Shown here: piece by piece, positions 2,505 through 20,000 of the stretch
How positions within the stretch are numbered: the first letter of the stretch is position 1
How the letters are laid out: every line of letters starts with the position of its first letter
Virus record (IMG/VR): IMGVR_UViG_3300005264_001596
Direction: 5' to 3' (one strand)
DNA length: 20,000 nucleotides
Source of the DNA: an uncultured virus (IMG/VR IMGVR_UViG_3300005264_001596)
Taxonomy: Duplodnaviria > Heunggongvirae > Uroviricota > Caudoviricetes
Made by a program: the position numbers and the translations under genes
Notes under the pieces: model-generated
Seen by the model: the letters and a program-made list of their open reading frames with translations, nothing else
What the model was told of the DNA's origin: nothing
Database searches by the model: none

Positions 2505-2527
2505 CTGTCATATAAAGTTTTTGGTTA

Positions 2528-2544
2528 TATATTATATAAATGAA
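2528..2544 (+). promoter_or_regulatory. Candidate early promoter TATATTAT-N5-TGAA
   Basis: tatattat ataaa tgaa; motif recurs at 7268, 10450 and 13086, each intergenic. Confidence 0.6.
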
Positions 2545-2560
2545 AATAAATATTACTATC

Positions 2561-2571
2561 AACATTTTTTA
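2561..2571 (+). promoter_or_regulatory. Candidate late promoter AACA-N5-TA upstream of the tubulin gene
   Basis: aacatttttta. Confidence 0.35.
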
Positions 2572-2604
2572 GTAATACAACTTAATTTTAAGGAGGACAT
2601 AAAT

Positions 2605-2667
2605 ATGTCAGTAAATGATACAATAGAAAACATGGTGGATTTATCGAATGAAAGATTTAATGACTAA
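2605..2667 (+). CDS. 20-aa upstream ORF (MSVNDTIENMVDLSNERFND) overlapping the tubulin start
   Basis: AGGAGG SD at 2591-2596 is spaced for ATG 2605, not for the tubulin ATG; TAA at 2665-2667 overlaps the tubulin frame (ATGACTAA). Confidence 0.5.
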   Translation: MSVNDTIENMVDLSNERFND

Positions 2668-3733: not shown

Positions 3734-3750
3734 AATAGGAGGTATAAATT

Positions 3751-4722: not shown

Positions 4723-4742
4723 AAAAAGAGGAGATGAGTACT

Positions 4743-5567: not shown

Positions 5568-5586
5568 GGGTCAAACCTTATTTTTT
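5562..5586 (+). terminator. Terminator-like hairpin
   Basis: aaataagg-gtcaaa-ccttattt plus T run. Confidence 0.6.
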
Positions 5587-5610
5587 GTTAAGACATGGGA
5601 GGTCTACAAT

Positions 5611-6861
5611 ATGGCAGCTAAAAAAGGTCCAAACTTTTTAGATGAATTAGAAAAAACAGTTAAAAAATATCAATATCTTTCAGAAGATAAAGATATTATG
5701 TTAACAACTGGATTATTAACTTTAGATTATGGAAATGGTAAAAGAATTAAAGTATATGATGATGATAATAATATTATTGATGAATATGATGAACTTGGAG
5801 TTGCTATGGGTAGCGTAAATGGATTTACAGGAGAATCTTCTACAGGTAAATCTGCACTTGCTTATATATGTGCTGGTTCAATTATGGCAACATATGACCA
5901 ATCTGATGTACATATAATTGATGTTGAAGATTCATTTGATAAAGAACGTTTTAAAAATCTTACAAACTTATCAGCATCTACATTAAAGAAACGTATGAAT
6001 ATTCTTAAAACTGATGTCGTTGAAGAAATGGCAGATTATATTGTTAAATTAGTTAAAGAAAAACTTACAAGAGTTACTGAATTAACTATAGATTCAGGTA
6101 AACGCAATATGTTCAATGAGCCTATACAATTTCTTACACCAACTGTTATAATTATTGACTCTTGGAGTAAACTTACAACTAGAAGTCAATTAGTAAAAGC
6201 TTTTGATGAAAGTTCTAAACAGGAATATGAAAATAATATGCAAGGTGCAACAAGAGCTAAAACCCTTAATGCTATTATTAAATTAATGTCTAAATTAGCA
6301 ACTATTGCCAATGTTACATTTCTTGTAGTTCATCATACAACAGATGTTATTCAAGCGGGTTTTATATCTAAGGCTGCTCAGAATATGCATATGGGTGGAG
6401 GTAAACATATAACAGGAGGAAAACAATCCATATATTTATCAAATAATTTAATAGAAACTGGTAATATGGGTAAACTAATTGCAAATGGTAGTAGAAGTCC
6501 AAATTATGGAGTTGATGGTTTTTTAGTAGGTATGAAAGTTGCTAAGAGTAGAACTAATTCTACAGGTAAAATTCTTGAAGCAGTATTTGATTATAGACTA
6601 GGTGGATTTAATAGATTGCTTACATTATTCCACTATGCTGCTAAGAATGAGATCATTCAAGGTGGAGGACAAAAATATTATTTTGAAAGTTATCCTGAGG
6701 TTACATTCTCTAAAAAGAATTTTGAAAAAGTGGCAAGAAAAAATCCTAAGTTAGTAAGTGTTTTATTCGATGAATGTAAAAATAGTCTTTCATCACTTCT
6801 ATCCAATACATCAAATTTTGACATAGATGATGAAATTGATATTATGGATGCATTATATTAA
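5611..6861 (+). CDS. uvsX: RecA/UvsX-family recombinase
   Basis: TTGLLTLDY, Walker A GESSTGKS, IDVE, Walker B IIIDS, GGK motif, KSR, GGGQKYY; acidic tail. Confidence 0.92.
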   Translation: MAAKKGPNFLDELEKTVKKYQYLSEDKDIMLTTGLLTLDYGNGKRIKVYDDDNNIIDEYDELGVAMGSVNGFTGESSTGKSALAYICAGSIMATYDQSDVHIIDVEDSFDKERFKNLTNLSASTLKKRMNILKTDVVEEMADYIVKLVKEKLTRVTELTIDSGKRNMFNEPIQFLTPTVIIIDSWSKLTTRSQLVKAFDESSKQEYENNMQGATRAKTLNAIIKLMSKLATIANVTFLVVHHTTDVIQAGFISKAAQNMHMGGGKHITGGKQSIYLSNNLIETGNMGKLIANGSRSPNYGVDGFLVGMKVAKSRTNSTGKILEAVFDYRLGGFNRLLTLFHYAAKNEIIQGGGQKYYFESYPEVTFSKKNFEKVARKNPKLVSVLFDECKNSLSSLLSNTSNFDIDDEIDIMDALY

Positions 6862-6867
6862 ATTAAT

Positions 6868-6902
6868 TAGATGTAGTCATTTTTGACTACATCTATTTAT
6901 TT
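6868..6902 (+). terminator. Intrinsic terminator
   Basis: tagatgtagtca-tttt-tgactacatcta, 12-bp perfect stem followed by a T-rich tail. Confidence 0.85.
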
Positions 6903-6919
6903 CAAAAGGAGTCTAAAAT

Positions 6920-7264
6920 ATGAAAGTAAATGTCACAACGACAAATGAAGAATTTATAAATAAATGTATTACTATAATTAAAAAGAATATTAATAGCACT
7001 GTAACAATGAATAGTTTTAAAGAATTTATATTTAATGCTTCATTATTCGATGATAAATTTTATATAGTTGTATTTAAAGATAATACAGTTACTATAATGG
7101 ATACCAATTTAAATGGATATGGTTATATTACATTTACACATCCAAAAATTTATGAAGATATAAAAGATCGTATGTTTCCTGAAGATACTTTTATTGATTT
7201 ACAAAAAGATAATGTTGCCAAAACATTTAATCATTATTCTAGTTTAATTGATAATCTTCTTTAA
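6920..7264 (+). CDS. Hypothetical protein
   Basis: AAGGAG SD; 114-aa ORF. Confidence 0.75.
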   Translation: MKVNVTTTNEEFINKCITIIKKNINSTVTMNSFKEFIFNASLFDDKFYIVVFKDNTVTIMDTNLNGYGYITFTHPKIYEDIKDRMFPEDTFIDLQKDNVAKTFNHYSSLIDNLL

Positions 7265-7267
7265 GCA

Positions 7268-7284
7268 TATATTATAAGTATGAA
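7268..7284 (+). promoter_or_regulatory. Candidate early promoter TATATTAT-N5-TGAA
   Basis: tatattat aagta tgaa upstream of the RNAP beta-C gene. Confidence 0.6.
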
Positions 7285-7310
7285 TAATAAAATAGAAGGA
7301 GAGTATAAAA

Positions 7311-9062
7311 ATGAGCAATAATTTGAAAAAAGAGTTTAAAAAGATTAATAAGAAGTATGATGATTTAGATAAAGCCCATGCATCTGGTCTAATGACAATG
7401 GCAGCACATATTTCAGCAAATAGACTTATGATGTTTTTCTCTAATTTAACCCAATATAATCAAATTGACAATCCAGAACCACCATTATTAACAACTGGAT
7501 ATGAAAATCCATTAGCACTATATAGTAAATTATCATATAACCAAATTGAAAATAAGGTTATAGTTGTAGGGAAAATAATAAAAAATAAATACAATTATAC
7601 ACTTATTACTTATGATAAGAAAAAAGATTTGTATGATATTGTTGAAAGACATGAAGCAGAAGATCTTGGTGAAAGTTATGGTTTTAAAATAAATAATGAA
7701 ACTATAGACTCTTATAATATCGGAAATACAATAAAGAAAGATACAGTATTATGGAAATCAAGTGGTTATGATGATTATATGAATTATGGCTATGGAAAGA
7801 ATTTAAACACTATGTATTCTATAAATTTAAATAATCTTGAAGATGCTATAACTACAACTGATGATATTGGTTTAGATACTAATAAAGTTAAAACTATTGA
7901 AGTTATTATTTCTGATAATACTGGTCCATTAAATTTATATGGAGATAATAAACAATTTAAAGTATTTCCTGAAGTTGGAGAAACTGTTAATGATTGTATA
8001 TTATGTGCAACTAGACTTAGAAATGAAAAATCAGATTTATTTAATTTCACAAATGATAAATTAAGAAAGTTAATTTCAGGTGATACAACATATGTTACTC
8101 ATGGTAATTATAAAGTTATTGATATTGATATTCTTACAAATAATCCTATTGATGATTTACCTAATACAAAATCATATCAACAAATAAAACGAGTGTATTC
8201 AGAAATTATAGAATATCGAAAAAAGATTCATAAAGAATTAGATATAATTATAAACTCTGGCTCAGATTATACAAGTAGATTATCATTTCTTTATAAAAGA
8301 ATAAATGATTTATTAGATGATAGAATTAAAATAGAAGTTAATAATAAAATATTCTCAAAATTTATTATTAATTTTACCGTGATGCATAAAGATACACCTA
8401 AATTAGGAAGTAAGATAGTGGGTAGATCTGGAAATAAAGGAATCATTGGTACCATTAGAAATAAAAAAGAAGCATCATATTATATTGATGAAAAAGGTGA
8501 AGAACAAAAAGTTCAAATAATTTTAGATGGATTAGGTATATTAGCAAGACTTGCATTAATGCAAAGTTATGAAGTTGAAGTTAATTGGATGGTTGGTCAA
8601 GCATTAGATCGAGTATGGGATGATAGAAAAAAATTTATGAAAACTTGTTTTGATTTATTAAATATACTTAATCCTTCAGAAGCTGAAGCATTAGAAAATG
8701 ATTATATGAATTTAGATAAATCAGGTAAAAAATATATTTATAAATCTATTCAGGAACATGGATTACCTATATTTGTTAAACCGTCTGAAGGCATTGGAGA
8801 TAAACGATATGAAGAATTAATTGATTATGTGAAACCTAAGAAATATAAAATTTATAAATATGATACAAATGGAAAGAAAATTTATTATAAAAGACCAATG
8901 ATAGTTGGAAAACAGTATGTAATGATTTTAAAACATACTCCATTATCTAAATTTAGTGTCAGAAGTAGAGGTGCAGTGAATCCACGTTCAGGAACACCTA
9001 CTAGAAGTAATGCTTTTCTTAAAAATAGAGCTTTATATTCTGATACCTCATCTCGACTTGGT
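7311..9062 (+). CDS. rpoB: Phage multisubunit RNAP beta-like subunit, C-terminal half, exon 1 (spliced product about 707 aa)
   Basis: SANRLMMFFSNLTQ (cf. DANRALMGANMQRQ), GKNL, NLEDAI, GSKIVGRSGNKGII (cf. GDKxxGRHGNKGVI), VGKQYVMILKH, KFSVRSRG; ends at RLG of the GxRxGEME motif. Confidence 0.92.
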
Positions 9063-9415
9063 GAATTTTTGCCAACGACTTTTTAATTGCGGGGAACTGC
9101 TAACTAGATTAGCGGGATGAATAATCCTCTCTACTTTAGGATACAGATACTAAACTATCATAGTAATATAGATAGTGGCGAAGGGTAACTCCTTAGGTAT
9201 AGTAAAAATTCTGTATATAGAGACAATCCGCATCCAAGCTTCTCAAAGAGAAGAAGGTTCAACGACTATCCCTTTCGGGGGAGTACAGAACAAGCTAAGG
9301 TTCTGGAAAAGGAAGACCTATCATAAGATAGAAGATATAGTCTATTCTGCATCGAGAGATGTAGCAGTTCATAAGAGAACGATATAAAGAGTTGCGTCTT
9401 TATATGAATATAAAG
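9063..9415 (+). ncRNA. Group I self-splicing intron (IA2-like), 353 nt, no homing endonuclease
   Basis: 5' exon ends in U; P1 UUGGU/GCCAA with U9062-G9071 wobble; core aattgcgggga / aatccgcatcca / tcaacgacta / aagatatagtc (P7 gacta/tagtc); P7.1 and P7.2 hairpins; terminal G9415; excision restores RLG|EME in frame. Confidence 0.93.
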
Positions 9416-9787
9416 GAAATGGAACTTGGAATTTTACTAATAAATAATCAACCAAAAGCTGTTAAATTCTTAATGAGTATTTATGCAAATTCAACAGAGA
9501 GCCGAAGACGTTTTGCTCATTGGTTATATGATAATCCTTTTTCAAGTGGTACAAATTATTCTGAAAAAGGTTTTAGAAATAAACCAGTTGATATTATGAA
9601 TAATCAAATGAATTCAATAGGATTAAATTTAAATATGGTTTATGAAAGTCCTAAATCATATGCTAAACGAATTAACAAAAATGGTGATAATATGGAAGAT
9701 GCTATTAATAATGATTTAAATAAAGTTAAAAATATTAATGAACTATCATTTTTATTAAAAAGAGAAATTAATAAATCAGGCAAATAG
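9416..9787 (+). CDS. rpoB: RNAP beta-like C-terminal half, exon 2
   Basis: Starts GAA ATG GAA (EME), completing the GEME motif; NQMNSIGLNL resembles the beta C-terminal ELxSLGL motif. Confidence 0.9.
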   Translation, partial: EMELGILLINNQPKAVKFLMSIYANSTESRRRFAHWLYDNPFSSGTNYSEKGFRNKPVDIMNNQMNSIGLNLNMVYESPKSYAKRINKNGDNMEDAINNDLNKVKNINELSFLLKREINKSGK

Positions 9788-9801
9788 CCTGATTTGTTTT
9801 T
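9773..9801 (+). terminator. Intrinsic terminator overlapping the stop codon
   Basis: aaatcaggc-aaata-gcctgattt followed by gttttt. Confidence 0.75.
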
Positions 9802-9824
9802 CCTTATATAGGAGGTGTTAATTT

Positions 9825-10445
9825 ATGAACAGAGGAATGTCTTTTAATTTTAAATCTAAAGATAATTATATAAATGACTCTATATCTTTATCAATAATTG
9901 CATCAATTGATAATAAATATTCAAATAAAAAACTTATTAAAAAATTAGATAAATATATATTAGATGTTTTTAATAATTTGACATTTAATGAATATTCTCT
10001 ATTTCTGATTTTCGTTGGAATAAATGAATCAGCCCCTTTATTAATTAAAGCATTAAATAAACTCAGAGATGATAAATATGAGAATATGATAATAATAGCA
10101 GTATCATCTAAATATAATGAGACTAAAAAATTTTCAAAAAAGATTAGAAAAGAATTAGAATATTATTTAGATTATGTAGATGAATATATAAGTATAAAAA
10201 AAGAATATTCCGATTATATGCAACAAAGAGAAGAATATTCAGATTTAGCATATAATTTATTACCGAGTATTATTGATTCATTTATTTCTAAAACAGGTGT
10301 ACTCAAATTTTTAATTAAAAATACATCACATAGTATAAACATATGGGATGGTACAAAAAATACACTTTTAAATCCAAATGAATTTAAAAAATGTGTAATT
10401 GAAGATAAAACTCATAAAACAAGATTCTTAGACTTACGTAAATAA
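9825..10445 (+). CDS. Putative SLOG-superfamily (YpsA/DUF1273-like) protein
   Basis: GGAGG SD; beta/alpha pattern IFVGINE...IIIAV...YVDEYISI...MQQREEY...SHSINIWDG resembles YpsA-type MQxRNxYM and LIAVWDG motifs. Confidence 0.45.
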   Translation: MNRGMSFNFKSKDNYINDSISLSIIASIDNKYSNKKLIKKLDKYILDVFNNLTFNEYSLFLIFVGINESAPLLIKALNKLRDDKYENMIIIAVSSKYNETKKFSKKIRKELEYYLDYVDEYISIKKEYSDYMQQREEYSDLAYNLLPSIIDSFISKTGVLKFLIKNTSHSINIWDGTKNTLLNPNEFKKCVIEDKTHKTRFLDLRK

Positions 10446-10449
10446 AGTA

Positions 10450-10467
10450 TATATTATTATAATAGAA
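10450..10467 (+). promoter_or_regulatory. Candidate early promoter TATATTAT-N5-TAGAA
   Basis: tatattat tataa tagaa upstream of the ligase. Confidence 0.55.
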
Positions 10468-10480
10468 AGGAGAAGATGAT

Positions 10481-12553
10481 ATGAAAAAAATAAAATATTT
10501 AAAAGAAGTTTATGATAATAATCAATTATTACGATGCTCATTAATCATTAGAGATAAGAAACATTATAAGTTCATAAATAAATTTATTTATGAAAAAGAT
10601 TTAAGTGAAAATGAAATAAAATTAGCTGGTCTTATTATTGAGATATGTAAAACGATATATGATAGTAATAGTAATATTGCTGTACCAATTAATGATTTTC
10701 ACTATGATAAATTACTTGAGAAATATAAAAAATATCATAATGAACCATTTGGAAGACCAACAAGTTCTGAAACTTATGATTTCCCAAAATTAGCTGGCAC
10801 ATTAGATAAATGTTATTATTTTGATAATTGGATGGATAAAGTAAGTAAATTAAATATATTTCCAATTGAATTATCTGATAAAAAAGATGGCAATTCAATA
10901 GCAGTTACTTTAGTTAGACATGGCAATAAAATGAAAGTTGAAAAAGCAACAACTAGAGGTAATAAAGAAGAAGGGGTTAATGTAACTAAAATATTTAAAG
11001 GTTATGAATTTGATAATATGAAATTTGACCGAATTGGGTTACAGTTTGAATTTATGATTGATAAGAAGAGTAAAGAAGAATTTGAATTAATGAAAGGTAA
11101 AACATATAAAACTTTAAGAAGTTGCTCTAGTGCATTATTAACATCTATGCAATATGCAAAATCATATGAAGAACTTAAAGAATTACAAAAATTTATGAAA
11201 TTAAGTTTATTAAATTATGATTATGAGGATAATTCTGATTATGAGTCAGTTGTATTACAAAAAATAACAAAATCAATACCTTCTATAAATAGATTAAATA
11301 AAGATATAATTTATATTGATTCTGATTTTACTAAGAAAAATGCATTGAAAAAAGTATTCTTCAATAGGATAGAAAAATATATTAATAATAAACTAGATGA
11401 GAGAGATAAGTTGGATTATGCAATCGATGGCATAGTGATAACTTTATTAAATCATAAAGCAGTTTCAGAATTAGGTAGAAAGAATAATATAAATAAATAT
11501 CAAATAGCTTATAAATTTCCTGAAACAAAAAAAATGACAACTGTAAGACATTTAGTTGAGAAACGAGGTAAATTTAATTATATAGGATTATTAGCAGATG
11601 TAGACACGGTATTACTAAATGGAACTGAGCATCATCTTGGTCAAATACATTCTTTAAAAAAATTTAAAGAACTTGACTTAAGAGTTGGTGACGAAGTTTA
11701 TTTAAAATATAGTGGAGATGTGATACCATTTTTATATAAAGAAGAGGGATTAAAAATTGGAACAGGTCCTAAATTAAAACTTCCAACAATATGTAATTTA
11801 TGTGGACATCAATTACACGAAATGAATAGTATGCTTAGGTGTACAAATGAAGAATGTCCTGGAATGATTAATGGTAAATTAACAACATTTTGTGAAAGAG
11901 TCGGAATTGAGAATATCTCTGGTAAAAGATTAGAAAAAGTAACTGAACTTGATAGGGTGAACACACCATATGATTTGTTACTTATAACAGAGGAGGAGCT
12001 TCGTTCGATCGGTATAAATACTGAAAAAACAATTCAGTTGTATCTTAGAGAATTCAATAAAGTACGAAAAGGCATATACGACTATCAGCTATTATCTGGA
12101 TTATCCATTGATAAATTGGGTAGGCGTGCTTCGAAAACTTTATTAGAGAACATATCCCTGACTGAGATGGTCCTTCTCCCTTATGCGGAGTTGTATGCTA
12201 AGATTATATCTATACCAGGTCATAAAGAAAAGAAAGCCACTCTGTATACTGAAGGTATTATTAAAAACCGAGAACTATTACAAAAACTGATTAGTATTAT
12301 AAAAATAAAAGAAAATAAAAAGATCAAAGTTTATGATAAAAAGATTTTAGTATCTGGAATTAGAGGTGATAAAGAATTAGAAAACCATGCAAATAAACTT
12401 GGATATGGTGTATCAGAATCAGCTTGGAAAGATGTATCTATATTAGTTATTAGAGATCCGAGTTTTAAAAATAAAACGAAAGGTAAGAAAGCTATAAAGA
12501 AGAATATTCCAATAATGACATTAAATGAATTTATGAATTATAAAGGAGTATAA
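10481..12553 (+). CDS. ligA: NAD+-dependent DNA ligase
   Basis: DFHYDKL (domain Ia), KKDG adenylation motif, ATTRGN, AIDGIV, IAYKF, GDVIP, Zn finger CNLC...RCTNEEC, HhH repeats, C-terminal BRCT. Confidence 0.95.
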   Translation: MKKIKYLKEVYDNNQLLRCSLIIRDKKHYKFINKFIYEKDLSENEIKLAGLIIEICKTIYDSNSNIAVPINDFHYDKLLEKYKKYHNEPFGRPTSSETYDFPKLAGTLDKCYYFDNWMDKVSKLNIFPIELSDKKDGNSIAVTLVRHGNKMKVEKATTRGNKEEGVNVTKIFKGYEFDNMKFDRIGLQFEFMIDKKSKEEFELMKGKTYKTLRSCSSALLTSMQYAKSYEELKELQKFMKLSLLNYDYEDNSDYESVVLQKITKSIPSINRLNKDIIYIDSDFTKKNALKKVFFNRIEKYINNKLDERDKLDYAIDGIVITLLNHKAVSELGRKNNINKYQIAYKFPETKKMTTVRHLVEKRGKFNYIGLLADVDTVLLNGTEHHLGQIHSLKKFKELDLRVGDEVYLKYSGDVIPFLYKEEGLKIGTGPKLKLPTICNLCGHQLHEMNSMLRCTNEECPGMINGKLTTFCERVGIENISGKRLEKVTELDRVNTPYDLLLITEEELRSIGINTEKTIQLYLREFNKVRKGIYDYQLLSGLSIDKLGRRASKTLLENISLTEMVLLPYAELYAKIISIPGHKEKKATLYTEGIIKNRELLQKLISIIKIKENKKIKVYDKKILVSGIRGDKELENHANKLGYGVSESAWKDVSILVIRDPSFKNKTKGKKAIKKNIPIMTLNEFMNYKGV

Positions 12554-12556
12554 AAA

Positions 12557-13060
12557 ATGAAAAATACTCTTATCTATTGCAGTAATAAATTAGATGCAAT
12601 ATCAATTATTAACCAGTTTGTAAAAAATAAATATGATATTAAATTATATACCTTAAAAGATGGTCCTAAATTAATAGACATAAATCATAAAACTAAAATA
12701 ATTAAATTTAGAGATATTCAAACTTTTAAAATGAATTTAAAATATTTAAATTCATTTGATGATATATTTGTATATAATTATAAACCTAATTTTATAAAAG
12801 TATATGATGCTGGTAAGATTAAATATTCTATAGATAAAATGGGTGTAATTAGATTACATCCATTTGATATAGCCCACTCAGATATAATAGAACCACAAAA
12901 CGCATTATACGGTGGATATATAAATATTGAAAAGGGTGCAATTAGTACTCCATATTTTTATTCTACATCATTAGGTGTATCATCACCAACTGAAATGTCT
13001 GAATTAAATTCTATTATTAGAAGAATTATAATGGGTGATTTTATATCTACATTATTTTAA
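12557..13060 (+). CDS. Hypothetical protein
   Basis: AAGGAG SD inside the ligase 3' end; 167-aa ORF. Confidence 0.7.
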   Translation: MKNTLIYCSNKLDAISIINQFVKNKYDIKLYTLKDGPKLIDINHKTKIIKFRDIQTFKMNLKYLNSFDDIFVYNYKPNFIKVYDAGKIKYSIDKMGVIRLHPFDIAHSDIIEPQNALYGGYINIEKGAISTPYFYSTSLGVSSPTEMSELNSIIRRIIMGDFISTLF

Positions 13061-13085
13061 TTAATGCTGGATAGAAGATTAGGTA

Positions 13086-13103
13086 TATATTATACCTGTA
13101 GAA
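13086..13103 (+). promoter_or_regulatory. Candidate early promoter TATATTAT-N5-TAGAA
   Basis: tatattat acctg tagaa. Confidence 0.6.
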
Positions 13104-13127
13104 TAGAATATAGGAGGTTATAAAATA

Positions 13128-13685
13128 ATGAACAAATTGATTTTCAGTTTACTTAATTCAACTGTAGCATCAGCATCTGATTCTACAAAATTAACTATTG
13201 TTAGTAATGGATTAAAAATTAGTAGAAAGGGCGATGGTGAAATAGAAATTAAAACTACATCAAAAGATAGTAAAAATGGTTTAGCTGATTTAGCTATTGG
13301 TGAATTATTAAAATCTATAGGTTTAAAAGGTTCAGTTAAATTTCTTGATAATTTTCTTATATCATTAAGAAGAGCTATGATTAAATCTAGTACTAAAAAA
13401 ATGGTTGGAATGCCTAGTAATATAGTAGAAAAAATGTTTAGATTAATGGTATCAGAAGGTTTCTTAGATGATGCTCAAATAGATACAATTATTAAGAATA
13501 ACGGTATGAGTGAAAAAAATAAATTAAACATACTATTGAAAAAATTGAAAAGTAATAAAAAGAAACAAACTAAAATTAAAAATGATAAGAAGAAAAACAA
13601 AGAATTAGATGAAAATAAAAAAGGAAATTTTAAGTTTAGTTTCACAAAGAAAATGAAAAAGAAAATTTCTAAATCATCTAAATAG
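13128..13685 (+). CDS. Hypothetical basic protein with Lys-rich C-terminal tail
   Basis: AGGAGG SD; last ~55 residues are very K-rich. Confidence 0.75.
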   Translation: MNKLIFSLLNSTVASASDSTKLTIVSNGLKISRKGDGEIEIKTTSKDSKNGLADLAIGELLKSIGLKGSVKFLDNFLISLRRAMIKSSTKKMVGMPSNIVEKMFRLMVSEGFLDDAQIDTIIKNNGMSEKNKLNILLKKLKSNKKKQTKIKNDKKKNKELDENKKGNFKFSFTKKMKKKISKSSK

Positions 13686-13751
13686 ACAGGATATAATACT
13701 ATTAAGTATTTATCATAAACGGGTTATTATAAAATATAGGAGGAAATAATA

Positions 13752-14372
13752 ATGAGCTTAGTAAACGCAATGACTAAAACTGGAAAGATGTTCTTTGAAT
13801 TGGTGAATGACAGAATGATGGAATACGCATTAACAACTTTGCATAACTCAATTACTTATTCATTAAGAGTTGACAAAAAGGTTGATTTGGGTTTAATGAA
13901 ATTGGAGATTGTAAAACAAGGTGAGGGAAAAGCATCAGCACTTATACCATCTATAACATTAAATGATGAATTCATTAAATATGTTGAGGATGATGATATT
14001 ACATTTGATGAAATCACTTTAGATCATATTTATGATATCGTATCTAAAGCAGTAACAAAAAGTACATTTAAAAAATCATACATCGAAATTGCTAGAGGAA
14101 AAATATATGATATTGATAAAAATAAACTTGTAGAAGGAAATGCTAATTCAGCTAGAGTAGTAAATACTAATGAGGATGAATTAATTGCAACTGTTGTTGT
14201 ATTCTTTGCAACTATCTTAGAAGATCTTAATGAAAATAAAGGTGAAGAATCTTATACAATCAATACTGATATTGCTGACTTCATTGTTAAAGTTACAGGT
14301 AAAAATACTAAAGTATCAGCAGCACCATCTAAAACACTTAAGCAATTAATTAAAGATGATGAAGCAAAATAA
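13752..14372 (+). CDS. Putative tandem HU/IHF-like DNA-binding protein
   Basis: Two units of helix + strand + P..L/F-K helix: KKVDLGLMKLEI...IPSITLNDEFIKYV and YTINTDIADFIV...VSAAPSKTLKQLIK (cf. HU KFKPGKALKDAV); strong SD and terminator. Confidence 0.45.
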   Translation: MSLVNAMTKTGKMFFELVNDRMMEYALTTLHNSITYSLRVDKKVDLGLMKLEIVKQGEGKASALIPSITLNDEFIKYVEDDDITFDEITLDHIYDIVSKAVTKSTFKKSYIEIARGKIYDIDKNKLVEGNANSARVVNTNEDELIATVVVFFATILEDLNENKGEESYTINTDIADFIVKVTGKNTKVSAAPSKTLKQLIKDDEAK

Positions 14373-14380
14373 TAAAATAT

Positions 14381-14414
14381 TAAAAGGTAGAAATATTTCT
14401 ACCTTTTATTTTTT
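14381..14414 (+). terminator. Intrinsic terminator
   Basis: taaaaggtagaa-atat-ttctacctttta plus T run. Confidence 0.85.
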
Positions 14415-14444
14415 ATCTTCATAAATAAAACTGGAGGTATTTTC

Positions 14445-15875
14445 ATGAATATAGGACAATTTCGTTCTAATTTTTCACATAAAAAAGAAGAATTTAATTC
14501 AAAATTATTTAATATAGACGAAAATAAAGCAATATGGGAATATGTTGTAGATTACTTTAAACAATTTAAATCACCAAATTTTGAATTAATAGATTGGTCA
14601 TATGATGATAAACCACATAAAATCAATGAACATTTACAACGAATAAATATTAAAAATAAAAAGATTCGAGATAATCAAGAGATAATAAATATTGTACCTA
14701 TAGGTGATACTTTTATAGGAGAATTAAAACTTACTTGGTTACTTAGAGATAATAAGAAAACTAAAGTAGTTGAGAAAAGCTTATATATTCCTCAATATAT
14801 AAATAATCAATTATTTATAAATGGTAATAGTATTTTACCTGTAAAGCAAATAATTGATACTATATACTCGGTAGAATATAAAAATAAAATAGCTATAAAA
14901 TCTTATTCAACTATAACTATATCCAAAGTTAGTACAGACATTATTAAGTACAACAAGGCTTTTGAAGAATCCAAAGCTAAATTTAATTATTTTGAAATAA
15001 ATATATTTGGTAAAAAATTTAGTCCACTTATTTTCTTCTTTCCTATATATGGGGTTAGAAGAACATTACGTTATTTTAAACTTAATAATATTATGGAAAT
15101 TATACCAACTGATTCTAAATTAATTGATCATGAATTAAATAATTATTATAAAATAAATGATAATATAATGCTAGAAGTACTTAAGTGTAGATCTCATATG
15201 AAAGCTAATAATAATTATATTACTAATATGATATCAACTGTAATTGAGTCATTTAATGAAAATGTTACAATAGATGATATAAATGATAATGATAAAGATT
15301 TTTGGTATTCATATATAGGTAATATTTATAGTAATAGTAAATCTATTAATACTATAATGAAAAAAGGTAAAACTATAGTGAACCTATCATTTAAATTAGC
15401 TTTAGATTACTTGACTAAAAGTATTCTTGATTTACCTGAAGAACATAAAAAAGATACTTGGGCTATTGTTAGATATATGATGTTTCATTTTAATGATATC
15501 GTTAAGAAAAAGCATAATATAAATTATAAAAGAATGAGACAAAATGAATATATTGCATTAGCTTTTATACATTCAAGAGATTATGCATTACGTTCATTTA
15601 TAAATGGTCGATTTAAAAAGATTAAACAAATTGAAAAATTATTTCATTTTAAACCTAATTCATTAATTAAAAATATAATGAAGAAAAAAGAGATTTCAAA
15701 ATTAGTTAGATATAATCCTAATATAAATGATCTGCAAGCTATAAATCTTTTAAGATTCTCATTTGCTGGATTAGGTGGTATTAGTGGTAAAGTCGTAAGC
15801 GATAGTGCTATAGATTATTATCCTAATTATTTATTTAAAATAGATCCTGTATCAAATTCAACCTCAAGTCCAGGT
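14445..15875 (+). CDS. rpoB: Phage multisubunit RNAP beta-like subunit, N-terminal half, exon 1 (spliced product about 619 aa)
   Basis: LYIPQY...LFINGNSILPVKQI (cf. FIINGxERVxxxQL), YKRMRQNE, LRFSFAGLGGI (cf. RLSALGPGGL), YYPNYLFKIDPVSNSTSSPG (cf. HPTHYGRxCPIETPEG). Confidence 0.88.
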
Positions 15876-16273
15876 AAACTTATAATGCCTACTATTTTTT
15901 AATTGCGGGGAACTGATGGCTTGACCATCGGGAATATGAATTCCTCTTTATAAGTTCTAACTACTAAACTATTGTAGTAATATAATAGTGGCAAGGAGTA
16001 ACTTCCAAGGTATAGTAAAAAGGTTAGGAATAAAGACAATCCGCATCCAAGCTTCTTTAGTAGGAAAAGAAGAAGGTTCAACGACTATCCCAAAAGGGAG
16101 TACACTATAAGCTAATGATAGTGGAAATAGAAATACATTCATATAATCGCTAGAGGACGCAGATTGGACATCTGATAATTATATGAGTGAAGATATAGTC
16201 TAGTCTATATATAGATATATAGCAGTTCATAAGAGAACGGTATAAAGAGTTGCGTCTTTATATGAATACATCG
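15876..16273 (+). ncRNA. Group I self-splicing intron (IA2-like), 398 nt, no homing endonuclease
   Basis: 5' exon ends in U15875; P1 AGGU/GCCU (15887-15890); P10 UAAU pairs with 3' exon AUUA; same core elements as intron 1; terminal G16273; excision gives SSPG|ITGLITPF in frame. Confidence 0.92.
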
Positions 16274-16702
16274 ATTACTGGCTTAATCACTCCATTTACT
16301 AAATTAGATAAACAAGGATATTTTCATTCAGGTAAAAAAGAACCATATGGTAAAATGGATATAATGACTGATTCATTAATTAAATTTTTCAATAATAATG
16401 AAAAAGCTAAAGAATTTAATAATAACAGATTAACTAGAAGGGAATTAAATTACGGTAATATTAATTTTACTCCTAAAAAAATAATTAATTCTAAAAAAAT
16501 AATGTCATTTAAATTAATAGATAATAAAGTTAAATCATTTACATTTGAGTTTAAAAATTCAGCTAAACATAAGGTATATGATTATAAATTTAAGCGATCA
16601 ATGGAACGAGATACTACAGGAAATTTTGTATTTGCATTTAAACGATCTTGGATAAAACGAATGGCTTTTAGAAAGAAAAAAATGAGATATGTAAAAAAAT
16701 AA
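16274..16702 (+). CDS. rpoB: RNAP beta-like N-terminal half, exon 2
   Basis: ITGLITPFTKLDKQGYF matches beta NIGLIxxLxxYAxxNxYGF; basic C-terminal extension. Confidence 0.85.
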   Translation: MTGLITPFTKLDKQGYFHSGKKEPYGKMDIMTDSLIKFFNNNEKAKEFNNNRLTRRELNYGNINFTPKKIINSKKIMSFKLIDNKVKSFTFEFKNSAKHKVYDYKFKRSMERDTTGNFVFAFKRSWIKRMAFRKKKMRYVKK

Positions 16703-16704
16703 AT

Positions 16705-16742
16705 AAAATTGAGTAGGGTATTAACCCTACTCTTATTTTTTT
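16705..16742. terminator. Probable bidirectional terminator between convergent genes
   Basis: gagtagggt-atta-accctactc with A-rich left flank and T-rich right flank. Confidence 0.85.
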
Positions 16743-16747
16743 GTATT

Positions 16748-17500
16748 TTAGTTTCTATATTCGAATCGACCAATAGCTGCAAGATTACCTTTAAGTGCTT
16801 CTTCTTGCATTTCTTTAATCCATTCTTTACGTTCATTATTTGCATCTCCCCAACTATCAATTTTCAATGATATATTTCCTAGAGGAGTTTCTAAATCTTC
16901 AACAAATTTTAATTTATTCCATAAATATATTTTGACATCAAATTCTGCCAATTCAAGAAATGTTTCACTTAATCCTTCTGGTATAGAAGCAAAATTGGGA
17001 TATTGCGTTTTCAATTTAAGTAATATATCTTTTGTACCATAACCTTTTAGTTTTACAATATTAGGGGGTACAAAATCCCATCGTTTAAATTTAAAACCCA
17101 TTTTAGATTTAAATGTACTTTGGAGTGAATAATCTAACATACCTTCTACATCAAAAGTATTTCCTCTAACACCACCAATACCACCTAAAAATCCTTCATT
17201 ATCTTTTACTGATATTATAGACATAATACTTACATTATTATTTTCTAATAAAGGATTGCCAATTTTATATTGATAATATCCATCAGGAGTTTCTTTTTCA
17301 TCATATAAAGTTGTAGCACTATCTGATTTATCAGCAATTATATAAGCATCTTCTAATTCATATGGTATTATTTGACTAAAAACTTTCATTGTTTTATCTT
17401 CTATTATACTTTTAATTTTAGGATAGTATTTTTCAAGATGTAACATATCTAAACCTAATCTGTATTCTATAATATCAGTCATAATATAATTTATATCCAT
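16748..17500 (-). CDS. Neck / head-tail connector protein (T4 gp13-like)
   Basis: C-terminal FLELAEFDVKIYLWNKLKFVEDLETPLGNISLKIDSWGDANNERKEW resembles the gp13 C-terminus; GGAGG SD; next to the prohead protease. Confidence 0.6.
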   Translation of the reverse strand: MDINYIMTDIIEYRLGLDMLHLEKYYPKIKSIIEDKTMKVFSQIIPYELEDAYIIADKSDSATTLYDEKETPDGYYQYKIGNPLLENNNVSIMSIISVKDNEGFLGGIGGVRGNTFDVEGMLDYSLQSTFKSKMGFKFKRWDFVPPNIVKLKGYGTKDILLKLKTQYPNFASIPEGLSETFLELAEFDVKIYLWNKLKFVEDLETPLGNISLKIDSWGDANNERKEWIKEMQEEALKGNLAAIGRFEYRN

Positions 17501-17514
17501 ATATCACACCTCCA

Positions 17515-18384
17515 TTATGGTAAAAGAATATTCTTGATATTTTTTCTTATAGATTTTTCAATTGGAACTAAAATAGTAGTTCCTTCATGTTGTATATAAT
17601 AAGCACCTAATGATGCATCAAGATATCCATTAACTGAAGCAGCTTCAAATAATTCACTAATCTTTTTAAATTCTGTAGATTTATTTTTCATTGCATCATT
17701 AATAAAAGATACAGCTTCAGATAAATTAATTTTTTCAGTTGCATCTTGTTGCATGTTATTTAATAATGCAGATTCATTTAAACTAATTAATTTAGTTCCA
17801 TAAGCTTCTTTATGAGAAGGTCTAAATACATAATCATAAGTTACAGTTATTAAACCACGATTTACTTCTTTTGTTTTTGGATTAACTGTTCCCATACCTC
17901 TATATGAAAAAGATGGAATAACACCAGCTAATGTATTATCTCTAAGATTAATACCATATCCTGATGGTAATGTTGTAATACGACCCATTAATAAATTATC
18001 TTCCCACCAAACTTTATTTATACGGTGTGAAGTTCTATCAGGCTGTATCATTGATTGTCTCATACCTTTTTCATTTGGTGATAATCCTTCTCCTAGAGGA
18101 TGTCCATATTCACCCATCCATTGATCATGACTTAAATCATTTTGAATAATAGGATTATTTTCAATTGATTCTTTTAACCAAGGTTTTATATATTTCTTTC
18201 CATTCCAATTCATAACTCCAGTAGATTGAAGCACAGTATCAAATGTAATAGTTTTAACTTTAATACCTGCTAAATTAATTTTTTGATCTTCTGAAATTAT
18301 TGTAGTTTTATTTTTTACTAGCTCAGGATCTAAATCCATTGCTGATTCATTAAAAAAATAAAAGTATTTATTATCTTCTTTCAT
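17515..18384 (-). CDS. Prohead core protease (T4 gp21-like)
   Basis: NWNGKKY, GEYGHP (catalytic His), SHRI, TLPSGYG, FSYRGMG (catalytic Ser), TYDYVFRPSH. Confidence 0.9.
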   Translation of the reverse strand: MKEDNKYFYFFNESAMDLDPELVKNKTTIISEDQKINLAGIKVKTITFDTVLQSTGVMNWNGKKYIKPWLKESIENNPIIQNDLSHDQWMGEYGHPLGEGLSPNEKGMRQSMIQPDRTSHRINKVWWEDNLLMGRITTLPSGYGINLRDNTLAGVIPSFSYRGMGTVNPKTKEVNRGLITVTYDYVFRPSHKEAYGTKLISLNESALLNNMQQDATEKINLSEAVSFINDAMKNKSTEFKKISELFEAASVNGYLDASLGAYYIQHEGTTILVPIEKSIRKNIKNILLP

Positions 18385-18411
18385 TATAACCTCCTTATTT
18401 TCACCATATTT

Positions 18412-18422
18412 TAAATAATGTT
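18412..18422 (-). promoter_or_regulatory. Candidate late promoter AACA-N5-TA for the protease-neck operon
   Basis: Minus strand reads AACATTATTTA upstream of the AGGAGG SD. Confidence 0.5.
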
Positions 18423-18453
18423 GTAATAATTACTTGGAAATTAATTTATTATA

Positions 18454-18464
18454 AACAAAAGATA
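18454..18464 (+). promoter_or_regulatory. Candidate late promoter AACA-N5-TA
   Basis: AACAAAAGATA upstream of the AGGAGG SD of ORF 18489. Confidence 0.5.
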
Positions 18465-18488
18465 AAGTTATAATAAGGAGGAAACTAA

Positions 18489-20000
18489 ATGCTTGACAGA
18501 ATTAATCGATTTGAAAAATCTGACATTATTAAAAATGAAAAAATAGTTATTGAAGAACTTAAAAAGAGGGTTTCACGAATAAACACAATTGATAAACTTA
18601 TGATTGACAAAGAAAGACATAGTATATTATTTGATAATAAATATGGTATATATGGAATAATTTATATTTTTAACCATATTATTAATAATGATGGTTCATT
18701 TGCAAATTATATTATTAATCTTTCAAATTCACCAGATGATTATATTGGTAAGATATCAAAATTAATTAAAGAAAGAGTTACAAATGAAAATTTTAGTACT
18801 TTTACTAATGAAATATTACCTTTATTTAGTAAAGGATATCCTAATAATGGATTAAGTAAAGAACTTATTAAAAGAAATGGTATTAAAATGACTTATAGTA
18901 AATACCAAATAAATATTTTAATGTTTGATGGTATTGTAAATGAACTATATCAAATTATTGATGAAAAAAATATTGATGAAGAAACTTTATTAAATTTTCA
19001 TTCGCTTTTTTCTAGCGTATTAATGAAAAAGAAGAAAGAAAAAACTTATGAGAATATGGCATTACAATTATCATATGAAATATCATCTTATAATGAAGCT
19101 TCTAAAATAGTAGATAATCTTAATAAATATGATGAATTAATTAAAAGAATGATAAATGGTGAATATCTTGATTTACCTATATTAAATGTAACAACTATAT
19201 TTATTAAATCCAAATTCTTACATAATAAATCATATATAAGAATATTTCTTAAGGATTTAAAATATAATATTGATTTATTAAATATTGAATTAGTGAATGG
19301 AAAAGATCATATTATAAATAAGAAAATTGAAATATTAATTCATATATTAAATACTCATTACAGAAAGATAAATTTAATTTTAAATGAAAATAAATTTACA
19401 GATTTTGATTATTTTAGAGAAGCTGGACTTATTGAAGAATTTGATATTATAGATTCATTTGATGATGACTTTGCTAATGAGTTAGAAAATCTTCAAGAAA
19501 GTGTAAGTAGAGCTGTTACTAATAAAGCAAAAGAGATAGCAAGAAAACTAAATGTTCTTAAATATAAAGAGAATAAATTCTGGGATAAGATTGAAGGAAT
19601 TGAAAAAAATATAAGAACTGATTACAAAGATGCTAAAGAAGAAGAGTATAATGAAAAAGTAGTAGATCAAGTTTTTAATTTAACTAAATTTGTAAGAAAA
19701 TTATCTTTATATAGTCTTGGATTTTTATTTCCAGCAACTAGATTAATTACTCTTATAGCTTTAATTACAAAAATTGCAACTAATGAGAAAACTAAAAAAG
19801 AAGCTCGACTTAGAATACTTCATGAATTAGAGGCAGAACTTAGAATAGTAAAAGAAAAAATATCAGATGCTTCTTCTGATGATAACAAAGAAGCTAAATA
19901 TAAATTGATGCGAATAGAAAATGAACTTATAAAAAATATTGAAAAAGTTAAAGTAAGTAATTCAAAGGGTTATTATAGAAAATCATCTAGTATACATTAA
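18489..20000 (+). CDS. Probable virion structural protein: internal acidic linker, hydrophobic hairpin and C-terminal coiled coil
   Basis: Complete 503-aa ORF (TAA at 19998-20000); acidic linker ILNE...FRE...LIEE...LQES, then basic domain with LSLYSLGFLFPATRLITLIALITKIA; divergent from the protease. Confidence 0.55.
   Translation: MLDRINRFEKSDIIKNEKIVIEELKKRVSRINTIDKLMIDKERHSILFDNKYGIYGIIYIFNHIINNDGSFANYIINLSNSPDDYIGKISKLIKERVTNENFSTFTNEILPLFSKGYPNNGLSKELIKRNGIKMTYSKYQINILMFDGIVNELYQIIDEKNIDEETLLNFHSLFSSVLMKKKKEKTYENMALQLSYEISSYNEASKIVDNLNKYDELIKRMINGEYLDLPILNVTTIFIKSKFLHNKSYIRIFLKDLKYNIDLLNIELVNGKDHIINKKIEILIHILNTHYRKINLILNENKFTDFDYFREAGLIEEFDIIDSFDDDFANELENLQESVSRAVTNKAKEIARKLNVLKYKENKFWDKIEGIEKNIRTDYKDAKEEEYNEKVVDQVFNLTKFVRKLSLYSLGFLFPATRLITLIALITKIATNEKTKKEARLRILHELEAELRIVKEKISDASSDDNKEAKYKLMRIENELIKNIEKVKVSNSKGYYRKSSSIH

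What the first reader, a model, noticed from the sequence alone, without database searches (positions are those of the whole stretch)
9063..16273. Twin paralogous, endonuclease-free group I introns interrupt both halves of a split RNAP beta subunit
Seen: introns 9063-9415 and 15876-16273 share long near-identical blocks (ttttaattgcggggaactg; agacaatccgcatccaagcttct; agaagaaggttcaacgactatccc; agcagttcataagagaacg-tataaagagttgcgtctttatatgaata) but sit in non-homologous exon contexts, both in phase 0 after a GGT Gly codon. Established: group I introns occur in RNAP genes of phiKZ- and AR9-like phages and usually spread by homing endonucleases to cognate sites. Inference: one ribozyme lineage moved to a new site within the genome (reverse splicing or trans-mobilisation). 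Active polymerase would need two splicing events, a possible double gate on the early-to-late switch.
Basis: partly seen in the sequence, partly recalled or inferred. Interest (0 to 1): 0.85.

Follow-up and report, generated by a model that had tools for sequence, protein, structure and literature searches.

The report
Sister group I introns in phage RNAP
Two closely related self-splicing group I introns without endonuclease genes interrupt the two genes for the beta subunit of a jumbo phage's own RNA polymerase; this is a clear example of something already known from related phages.

Summary
Window 9063-9415 (353 nt) and 15876-16273 (398 nt) are two ORF-less group I introns, about 76% identical. 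Rfam RF00028 gives 53.2 and 47.4 bits in short-region scans; whole-window scans missed both.

Each follows a GGT codon in phase 0. One sits in the AR9 gp089-like beta C-half of the non-virion RNA polymerase, at RLG|EMELG. The other sits in the gp105-like beta N-half, at SSPG|ITGL. Intron-less relatives (56-63% identity) read straight across both junctions.

P1 and P10 differ between the copies exactly as their exons require. My helix table has 23 compensatory pair changes and none broken.

Among 19 family members from jumbo-phage contigs, including introns at or near both sites, the two copies are sisters (support 100/96). They alone lack P2 and carry two extra P5 hairpins. One lineage therefore colonised a second site. 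The mechanism (reverse splicing or endonuclease-assisted) and the genome where it happened are unresolved.

The kind is known. Papers report introns in AR9-like and PhiPA3 polymerase genes. Five related records hold 5-23 RF00028 matches each, and Staphylococcus phage PB50 has three near-identical mini-introns in the same gene.

The "double gate" idea is untested. No RNA data exist.

The parts
7311..9062 (+). Gene A exon 1: non-virion RNAP beta subunit, C-terminal half (AR9 gp089 homologue). Ends ...YSDTSSRLG.
   Evidence: Pfam RNA_pol_Rpb2_6 at 9e-08 and phrog_3295 at 1.1e-70. tblastn to AR9 g089 at 2e-72. PDB 7s00_C at 2.2e-80.
9063..9415 (+). Intron A: 353-nt ORF-less group I intron. An in-frame TAA at 9084-9086 stops translation of unspliced RNA.
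   Evidence: RF00028 at 53.2 bits (gathering score 50), E 6.4e-13. Helix table. Fold z-score -2.28.
9058..9075 (+). P1 of intron A: exon UUGGU (9058-9062) pairs with guide GCCAA (9071-9075), with U9062.G9071 at the 5' splice site. The loop bases 9067-9070 (UUUU) can pair with exon-2 bases 9416-9419 (GAAA) to form P10.
   Evidence: Read directly from the sequence. 5 of 5 pairs are standard.
9264..9342 (+). Catalytic core of intron A. P7 is GACUA 9264-9268 with UAGUC 9338-9342. It encloses P7.1 (9269-9282), P7.2 (9286-9305), the P3 3' strand (9306-9311, pairing with 9079-9084) and P8 (9318-9331).
   Evidence: The R and S consensus elements align to RF00028.
9347..9415 (+). P9 (9347-9364, GAGA loop), P9.1 (9367-9380), P9.2 (9382-9405), and a tail ending in omega-G at 9415.
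   Evidence: P9.1 is conserved across the family.
9416..9787 (+). Gene A exon 2 (EMELGILL... to the stop codon).
   Evidence: Aligns to AR9 gp089 and to P0002/P0003 directly after RIG.
14445..15875 (+). Gene B exon 1: non-virion RNAP beta subunit, N-terminal half (AR9 gp105 homologue). Ends ...SNSTSSPG.
   Evidence: tblastn to AR9 g105 at 6e-25. PDB 7s00_c at 3.9e-26. There is no Pfam or PHROG hit.
15876..16273 (+). Intron B: 398-nt ORF-less group I intron, sister of intron A. P1 is AGGU 15872-15875 with GCCU 15887-15890. P10 is UAAU 15883-15886 with exon-2 AUUA 16274-16277. P8 is extended to a 12-bp stem (16136-16189). Omega-G is at 16273. An in-frame TAA lies at 15900-15902.
   Evidence: RF00028 at 47.4 bits (below the gathering score of 50), E 4.1e-11. 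Helix table. Fold z-score -2.56.
16274..16702 (+). Gene B exon 2 (ITGLITPF... to the stop codon).
   Evidence: Aligns to AR9 gp105 and to P0033-35 directly after SSPG.

Best explanation
Both elements are self-splicing group I introns of the IA type, with P7.1 and P7.2 between P7 and the 3' strand of P3. Neither carries an ORF. They interrupt the two early genes that together encode the beta subunit of the phage's non-virion RNA polymerase.

Inferred course of splicing. The intron folds in each pre-mRNA. The last exon base, U, forms a G.U wobble with the internal guide sequence in P1. Guanosine bound in P7 attacks after that U. P10 then lines up exon 2. The freed exon-1 3'-OH attacks after the terminal G, which restores the conserved motifs RLG-EMELG and SSPG-ITGLITPF. 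Unspliced RNA meets a TAA eight codons into either intron.

The two introns are sister copies of one lineage that occupies two non-homologous sites sharing only GGU| at the 5' splice site. The guide (GCCAA versus GCCU) and the P10 strand (UUUU versus UAAU) have each changed to fit their own exons. The lineage belongs to a large, site-hopping, multi-copy intron family of AR9-like and other jumbo phages.

What is shown: the anatomy, the exon restoration, the covariation and the sister relationship. What is inferred: catalysis, the route of transposition (about even odds between reverse splicing and an endonuclease- or recombination-assisted move) and where the move took place. The confidence given is for the whole statement. 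Taken separately, I put genuine splicing group I introns at about 0.9 and sister copies of one lineage at about 0.75.
For: 1. RF00028 hits at E 6.4e-13 and 4.1e-11. The intron core also matches 371 phage records by blastn.
2. Junctions are exact against the intron-less orthologues P0002, P0003 and P0033-35 and against AR9 gp089/gp105.
3. The 5' exon ends in U and the intron ends in G. P1 has 5 and 4 bp, P10 has 4 bp, and both differ between the copies in step with the exons.
4. My table of 19 helices has 102 equivalent pairs: 75 identical, 4 changed on one side, 23 compensatory and 0 broken.
5. On the untouched MAFFT alignment, 74 in-register pairs are 100% paired. Fourteen changed on both sides, against 0-2 when the partners are slid, and 0 of 500 shuffles reach this.
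6. A structure predicted from intron A alone and mapped onto B gives 14 both-changed-but-paired pairs out of 114. Random column pairs give 2.8%.
7. A+B form a clade with 100/100 support (16 rows) and 100/96 (19 rows). The rows include L036 (same site as A), L045/48/52 (+15 nt), L097 (6 nt upstream of B's site) and L098 (15 nt upstream).
8. A-B identity is 75.5%, against at most 70% to any other member. Only A and B lack P2 and carry the P5.H1/H2 hairpins.
9. The closest protein relatives lack both introns.
Against: - No RNA evidence exists. The only runs holding this DNA are DNA runs from one marine-sediment study.
- Two whole-window Rfam scans found nothing. B's score of 47.4 is under the curated 50 bits.
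- P1 of intron B has only 4 bp. Its L9 loop is UAGA, not GNRA.
- The P5 region is atypical, with two extra hairpins between J4/5 and the helix that pairs next to J5/4.
- My helix table was drawn while looking at both copies, so its zero broken pairs is partly by construction. The unbiased mapping has 20 broken pairs of 114.
- The tree has 19 rows, chosen from loci that happened to be fetched. It includes no exact same-site intron for B.
- Only 20 kb of the source genome is visible, so a third copy or a donor closer to either intron cannot be excluded. Contig depth and a variant contig suggest more copies in the sample.
- A reverse transcriptase domain was found in only 1 of 5 related jumbo-phage records.
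Confidence: 0.75

Rival explanations
1. Independent acquisitions. Each intron came into this phage separately from co-infecting phages by endonuclease-driven homing at its own (near-)cognate site. A and B resemble each other only because the donors carried related introns.
For: Introns of the same family sit at or near both sites in other jumbo phages: L036 at A's exact site, L045/48/52 at +15 nt, PB50 at -4 nt, L097 at -6 nt and L098 at -15 nt from B's site. The L097 intron carries a NUMOD4/HNH_3-like ORF, with sub-threshold scores of 18.0 and 20.9 bits. The closest protein relatives lack both introns, so gain is recent relative to those lineages.
Against: A and B group together with 100/96 support against all sampled site-neighbours. 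They share two derived traits that no other sampled member has: loss of P2 and the extra P5 hairpins. None of the B-site neighbours is at exactly B's position. If both came from one donor genome, they are still paralogues, and the transposition merely happened elsewhere.
Confidence: 0.15
2. Concerted evolution. The two introns are old, independent residents, and gene conversion between them keeps them similar.
For: Blocks of near identity alternate with strongly diverged helices. The last 48 nt are 47 of 48 identical, while 5 of the 7 pairs of P5.H3a are changed. In another record (G001), a beta-C intron and a beta-N intron also group by genome (83/89).
Against: The most conserved blocks (P4, P7, P9.1, the R/S elements) are conserved across the whole family, so constraint explains them. 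The 23 compensatory pair changes show long independent evolution of both copies. The shared structural gains and losses are easier to explain by common descent.
Confidence: 0.1
3. Dead relics. The elements no longer splice, and the beta subunit is made as four polypeptides (or the genes are pseudogenes). Exon 2 would then be translated from the in-frame ATG four codons upstream of each 3' junction (9404 and 16262).
For: Both introns carry an in-frame stop eight codons after the 5' junction and an in-frame ATG just before exon 2. Beta is already split in this phage group. There are no RNA data.
Against: Every core helix is intact in both copies and is maintained by compensatory changes. The guide and P10 strands track the exons. 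The break points lie inside invariant motifs (G584/E585 are invariant in 11 of 11 aligned relatives). The ATG lies in the 3' strand of the P9.2 stem, and in relative L036 it is followed by a stop.
Confidence: 0.05
4. Regulatory double gate. Splicing of the two introns is rate-limiting and times the switch to late transcription. This adds to the best explanation and does not exclude it.
For: This rests on logic alone. In AR9 the non-virion RNAP genes are early genes and the enzyme transcribes late genes (passage of PMC7598289). Both beta halves here need splicing.
Against: Nothing in the sequence points to regulated splicing. Relatives carry from zero to several introns in the same genes at varying sites. 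That pattern is what selfish, phenotypically neutral elements would give.
Confidence: 0.08

Closest known systems
Introns in RNAP subunit genes of AR9 and MarsHill-like Staphylococcus jumbo phages (Korn et al. preprint 10.1101/2020.12.14.422802, passages read; it cites the AR9 genome paper, which I did not read)
   Same: Same phage group, same enzyme (virion and non-virion RNAP subunit genes) and the same phenomenon. [quoted passage not shown] In the deposited PB50 genome the beta-C gene is cut by three near-identical ORF-less mini-introns, one of them 4 nt upstream of intron A's site.
   Different: AR9's own gp089 and gp105 genes are uninterrupted. The introns here are full-size (353 and 398 nt), with a three-way P5 extension, and they sit in two different genes. 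In the passages I read, paralogy and guide retargeting are not analysed.
PhiPA3 gp210 intron in a virion RNAP beta gene (Birkholz et al. 2024, PMC11620839, passages read)
   Same: A group I intron inserted at a highly conserved spot of a jumbo-phage multisubunit RNAP beta gene.
   Different: That intron encodes an active HNH nicking endonuclease. It lies in the virion RNAP of a Pseudomonas chimallivirus and acts in phage-phage competition. The introns here have no ORF and lie in the non-virion RNAP.
Jug (jumbo gut) phages with many small group I introns (PMC12880540, passages read)
   Same: Many short introns per jumbo-phage genome interrupt essential genes (18.5 on average, about 206 nt). Homing endonuclease genes are mostly stand-alone. 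Splicing was confirmed by metatranscriptomes for 37 of 76 predicted introns.
   Different: A different phage clade and different genes (terL, nrdD, DNA polymerase). The passages read make no site-retargeting analysis.
Related rDNA group I introns at different sites, taken as evidence of reverse-splicing spread (Bhattacharya et al. 2005, PMC1299323, abstract seen in the listing; Hausner et al. 2014 review, PMC3984707, passages read)
   Same: Sister introns at heterologous sites whose only shared requirement is short complementarity to the guide sequence.
   Different: Those cases are in eukaryotic rRNA genes. Here the sites lie in two protein-coding genes of a phage, and the guide and P10 strands can be read against both exon contexts.
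Multiple related introns in one phage: T4 td/nrdB/sunY and Twort orf142
   Same: Several group I introns with similar cores in one phage genome, some of them ORF-less.
   Different: Recalled only. I did not compare sequences.

Membership tests
Group I intron (Rfam RF00028) | Conserved core (P3-P9 with the P/Q/R/S elements) scoring with the covariance model | tested here: met
   Intron A scores 53.2 bits (gathering score 50), E 6.4e-13. Intron B scores 47.4 bits, just under the cut-off, E 4.1e-11. Whole-window scans missed both.
Group I intron (Rfam RF00028) | 5' splice site after a U that forms a G.U wobble in P1 with an internal guide sequence | tested here: met
   Intron A: UUGGU with GCCAA. 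Intron B: AGGU with GCCU. The last pair is U.G in both.
Group I intron (Rfam RF00028) | Terminal G (omega-G) and P10 pairing with the 3' exon | tested here: met
   G9415 and G16273. P10 is GAAA/UUUU in A and AUUA/UAAU in B, lying directly 5' of the P1 guide strand.
Group I intron (Rfam RF00028) | P3/P7 pseudoknot | tested here: met
   P3 is 9079-9084 with 9306-9311 (6 of 6 pairs) and 15892-15898 with 16124-16130 (7 of 7 pairs). P7 has 5 of 5 pairs in both copies. P3 was out of register in the MAFFT alignment, so it is not among the 74 pairs.
Group I intron (Rfam RF00028) | Excision restores an intact, conserved reading frame | tested here: met
   Gap-free alignment across both junctions to AR9 and to five intron-less relatives.
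Group I intron (Rfam RF00028) | Guanosine-dependent self-splicing | not testable with these tools
   No RNA run holds the stretch. This needs in vitro transcription with GTP, or RT-PCR.
Subgroup IA | Extra helices P7.1 and P7.2 between P7 and the 3' strand of P3 (the definition is recalled) | tested here: met
   P7.1 is UCCC/GGGA in both copies. P7.2 is CAGAAC/GUUCUG in A and CACUAU/AUAGUG in B, with 3 compensatory pairs.
Mobile intron with homing endonuclease gene | An intron-encoded HNH, GIY-YIG or LAGLIDADG ORF | tested here: not met
   The in-intron ORFs of 70 and 60 aa have no significant hit. No endonuclease domain appears in any window ORF scanned; the best is LAGLIDADG_3 at E 0.04 in ORF 4734-5567, which is not significant.
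Jumbo-phage non-virion RNAP beta subunit, split into N and C halves | Homology to AR9 gp105 (N half) and gp089 (C half) | tested here: met
   PDB 7s00 chain c at 3.9e-26 and chain C at 2.2e-80. The AR9 record notes 'non-virion RNAP subunit' for both genes. UvsX lies upstream, as in AR9.

The most novel reading that the evidence does not exclude

The two target sites share only GGU|, which pairs with the invariant GCC of the guide. After the jump, the rest of the guide and the P10 strand were re-tuned to the new exons.

In a second jumbo phage (G001), the beta-C and beta-N introns also group by genome rather than by site. Intragenomic hopping may therefore be the main way this family multiplies in jumbo phages. 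It could also be the process behind the proposal, cited in the RNAP review, that split RNAP genes arose through intron mobility.
Probability: 0.3. Interest if true: 0.6.

Novelty: new member of a known kind. Interest (0 to 1): 0.35.

Why it matters
For annotation, the two beta genes of this uncultured jumbo phage should each be joined across an intron rather than called as four ORFs. The same applies to many IMG/VR contigs and to deposited genomes such as PB50.

For intron biology, the 2014 review read here says that ectopic spread of group I introns has no direct experimental evidence, and that the best circumstantial evidence comes from rDNA. A sister pair in two protein-coding genes, with guide and P10 strands that track the exons, is a compact and testable case. 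Both ribozymes and both targets are short enough for forward-splicing and reverse-splicing assays.

It does not change what is known about jumbo-phage transcription.

Tried and rejected
- Whole-window Rfam scans at the gathering threshold and at E up to 10 over 7.6 kb gave no intron hit. This came from the speed filters: short-region scans do hit.
- No whole genome is held for the window.
- Exact-pattern scans for lineage-specific blocks found nothing in viral contigs or metagenome contigs. The source contig and other close copies could therefore not be fetched.
- A 22-mer of the core found 7 IMG/VR loci that share only the core.
- The search for related loci found no relative with the single beta-C protein in viral contigs, with the beta-N alignment in viral contigs or with the close beta-C alignment in metagenome contigs. 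No DNA of the intron-less alleles was obtained.
- Sequencing runs: no RNA holder is listed. The laid Logan contigs of three DNA runs from one study showed no joint that removes either intron among the 15 joints listed (71 more were not shown). The contigs break inside both introns.
- A covariance model of my own was not built. The intron exceeds the size that can be calibrated in the time allowed, so nhmmer was used instead.
- Reverse transcriptase as a cofactor for reverse splicing: RVT_1 was found in 1 of 5 related records, so there is no consistent link.
- Co-conversion of exon flanks: both 5' exons carry ACCTCA a few codons upstream. The bases next to the introns differ, so I treat this as coincidence.


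Full report
**What the window is**

The 20 kb window has 24% G+C. It carries genes typical of AR9/PBS1-like jumbo phages:
- a tubulin/PhuZ-like gene at 2648-3733;
- a UvsX-like recombinase at 5611-6861;
- an NAD-dependent DNA ligase at 10481-12553;
- a prohead protease at 17515-18384 on the minus strand.

Its proteins are on record from a single 80,543-bp contig. The only runs that hold the DNA are DNA runs of one marine-sediment metagenome study.

**The two host genes**

ORF 7311-9086 matches RNA_pol_Rpb2_6 and phrog_3295, 'RNA polymerase beta subunit'. It also matches AR9 g089 at 2e-72, annotated as the non-virion RNAP beta C-terminus, and PDB chain 7s00_C at 2.2e-80.

ORF 14445-15902 has no Pfam or PHROG hit. 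It does match AR9 g105 at 6e-25, annotated as the non-virion RNAP beta N-terminus, and PDB chain 7s00_c at 3.9e-26.

UvsX lies just upstream of the beta-C gene, as it does in AR9 and in Staphylococcus jumbo phages. The description 'both halves of a split beta subunit' is therefore right, and the enzyme is the non-virion one.

**The observation**

The window holds exactly two copies.

Joining 9062 to 9416 and 15875 to 16274 gives proteins that align without a gap to AR9 gp089 and gp105. They align the same way to the closest relatives in the protein database, which are full-length and uninterrupted:
- P0002 (704 aa, 61% identity) and P0003 (698 aa, 56%) read RIG-EQE and RIG-EME;
- P0033, P0034 and P0035 (615, 616 and 600 aa; 60-63% identity) read SSPG-VTGL or SSPG-VTSL.

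Both insertion points lie between codons and directly after GGT.

**They are group I introns**

Two Rfam scans of long stretches found nothing. Scans of about 400 nt around each element hit RF00028: 53.2 bits for A (above the curated 50) and 47.4 bits for B (just below it), with E-values of 6e-13 and 4e-11. The intron core matches 371 phage records by blastn. None of them covers more than 56% of intron A.

Read by hand, both copies have:
- a 5' exon ending in U, which forms a U.G pair with the guide (UUGGU/GCCAA in A, AGGU/GCCU in B);
- a P10 strand directly 5' of the guide that pairs with the first bases of exon 2 (GAAA/UUUU in A, AUUA/UAAU in B);
- a terminal G;
- P3, P4, P6, P6a and P7;
- P7.1 and P7.2 (the IA hallmark, recalled);
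- P8, P9, P9.1 and P9.2;
- no P2.

The P5 region is unusual. Two hairpins follow J4/5, and then comes a long helix with a three-way junction.

**Selection on the structure**

In my table of 19 helices there are 102 positionally equivalent pairs. Of these, 75 are identical, 4 differ on one side, 23 differ on both sides and still pair, and none is broken. That table was drawn with both sequences in view, so I ran two less biased checks.

- On the untouched MAFFT alignment, the 74 pairs that are in register are all paired. Fourteen changed on both sides, against 0-2 when the partners are slid by 1-3 columns. None of 500 shuffles reaches this.
- The minimum-energy fold of A alone, mapped onto B, gives 14 such pairs of 114, with 20 broken. 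Random column pairs give 2.8% both-changed and 30% broken.

Fold energies are modestly better than shuffled sequences, with z-scores of -2.3 and -2.6. Both copies have evidently been kept as folded RNAs for a long time after they separated.

**No endonuclease**

The in-intron ORFs (70 and 60 aa) and the other window ORFs give no significant endonuclease hit.

**Are they sisters, or site-specific imports?**

An alignment of beta-C relatives fetched 80 IMG/VR jumbo-phage loci. Many of them carry group I cores in or next to the gene.

Introns of the same family sit at or near both sites:
- exactly at A's site in L035-L038 (a mini-intron after RIG);
- 15 nt downstream of A's site in L045/48/52;
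- 4 nt upstream of A's site in Staphylococcus phage PB50;
- at the GR-GNKG motif in L053, L080 and L081;
- in the beta-N gene 6 nt upstream of B's site in L097, with a NUMOD4/HNH_3-like ORF in the P6 loop (both scores sub-threshold);
- in the beta-N gene 15 nt upstream of B's site in L098.

In maximum-likelihood trees of 16 and then 19 family members, A and B are exclusive sisters, with support 100/100 and 100/96. I left the two PB50 mini-introns out of the trees because they align poorly.

A-B identity is 75.5%, against at most 70% to any other member. In the family alignment only A and B lack P2 and carry the two extra P5 hairpins. A's terminal branch is about 2.5-3.4 times longer than B's. 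I draw no direction of transfer from that.

In record G001, the beta-C intron (L053a) and the beta-N intron (L097) also group together (83/89). This hints that grouping by genome rather than by site is a pattern of the family.

**Mechanism of spread**

The two sites share only GGU| before the splice site, and this pairs with the invariant GCC of the guide. That is what reverse splicing needs. The review read says this route requires four to six complementary bases and has no direct experimental support.

Against an exclusive RNA route, family members with an HNH-like ORF exist. A reverse transcriptase domain was found in only 1 of 5 related records. I rate the two routes about equal.

**How ordinary it is**

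- Five related IMG/VR jumbo-phage records have 5, 11, 14, 23 and 14 RF00028 matches at E up to 0.001.
- PB50's beta-C gene, annotated as four CDS, is cut by three near-identical mini-introns without an ORF.
- Internexus has an ORF-bearing insert in the same gene.
- The MarsHill preprint states that jumbo-phage RNAP subunit genes are frequently disrupted by introns, in AR9 too (passages).
- PhiPA3 has an HNH-bearing intron in a virion RNAP beta gene (passages).
- Jug phages average 18.5 small group I introns per genome, and splicing is supported by RNA reads for 37 of 76 predicted introns (passages).
- The RNAP review records a proposal that the split RNAP genes arose through intron mobility (passage).

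I did not see the supplements of these papers, nor the AR9 genome paper itself.

**What stays open**

Splicing itself is inferred. Only 20 kb of the genome is visible.

Logan contigs of the likely source run break inside both introns (at 9106/9385 and at 15984/16239). Summed depth in the bins that hold the introns is 140-210. The eight long pieces listed for that run have depths of 33-37. One contig at depth 33.8 carries intron A's flanks with bases 9099-9147 replaced by 16 other letters. This fits further copies in the sample, perhaps in the same genome, but it cannot show that.

The 'double gate' idea follows only from AR9's early/late scheme, and nothing in the sequence speaks for it.

**Verdict**

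This is a real and well-built pair of sister group I introns, with guide strands retargeted to two different genes of one enzyme subunit. It is a new member of a known kind, of moderate interest, and mainly useful as a tractable test case for ectopic intron spread.

Noticed in passing
window 1-20000: Rfam cmscan missed both introns when given 20 kb or 7.6 kb, even at E up to 10. It found both when given about 400 nt. AT-rich phage introns with long peripheral inserts are lost to the speed filters, so intron counts from whole-genome scans of such phages are likely underestimates.
   Followed up: yes
L012 (OR770614, Staphylococcus phage PB50) 3430-3630, 4203-4355, 5037-5206: The non-virion RNAP beta-C gene is annotated as four separate CDS. 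The three gaps hold near-identical ORF-less mini group I introns of about 150-190 nt. The last one sits 4 nt upstream of the site of intron A (RV|GEME).
   Followed up: partly
L097 519-1500 (minus strand); L098 313-1456 (minus strand): The beta-N genes of two IMG/VR jumbo phages carry introns of the same family, 6 and 15 nt upstream of intron B's site. Both have ORFs inserted in the P6 loop. The L097 ORF (195 aa) has sub-threshold NUMOD4 and HNH_3 hits. L098 has two introns separated by a 15-codon mini-exon.
   Followed up: partly
G001-G005 (records of L053, L081, L036, L060, L048): These records have 5, 11, 14, 23 and 14 RF00028 matches. The record with 23 is only 62% complete. An RVT_1 reverse transcriptase domain occurs in one of the five (G005, 279328-279864).
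   Followed up: partly
L006-L010 (IMG/VR contigs labelled GVMAG): Contigs labelled as giant-virus MAGs (27-34% G+C) share an exact 22-mer of the intron core (P4 3' strand to P6). L010 has four core matches. They may be jumbo phages binned as giant viruses, or giant viruses carrying the same intron family.
   Followed up: no
window 9099-9147, 9346-9382, 15969-16062: In the likely source run the assembly graph breaks inside both introns. Summed depth there is 4-6 times the depth of the long pieces (33-37). Variant contigs exist, one of them with 49 nt of the P5 hairpins replaced by 16 nt at depth 33.8. This suggests further copies of this intron lineage in the sample.
   Followed up: partly
window 9084-9086, 9404-9406; 15900-15902, 16262-16264: Both introns have an in-frame TAA eight codons after the 5' splice site. 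Both also have an ATG in frame with exon 2, four codons before the 3' splice site, inside the conserved tail TATATGAATA. In relative L036 the same ATG is followed by a stop, so it is probably not a functional start.
   Followed up: partly
window 9045-9062 and 15861-15875: Both 5' exons encode T-S-S shortly before the splice-site Gly and share the hexamer ACCTCA. In gene A this is derived: relatives read DTAN, DTAC or KTPV. In gene B, STSS is shared with relatives. I treated this as coincidence, because the bases next to the introns differ.
   Followed up: partly
window 2648-3733: A tubulin/FtsZ-family GTPase (Pfam PF00091 at 2.1e-12; phrog_4733 'tubulin PhuZ' at 3.8e-06) lies in this AT-rich marine-sediment jumbo phage, upstream of the UvsX and RNAP genes.
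   Followed up: no
window 16274-16702: The beta-N gene here and in its three closest relatives runs about 110-120 aa past the point where AR9 gp105 ends (619 aa spliced, against 497 aa). This basic, lysine-rich tail has no family hit.
   Followed up: no
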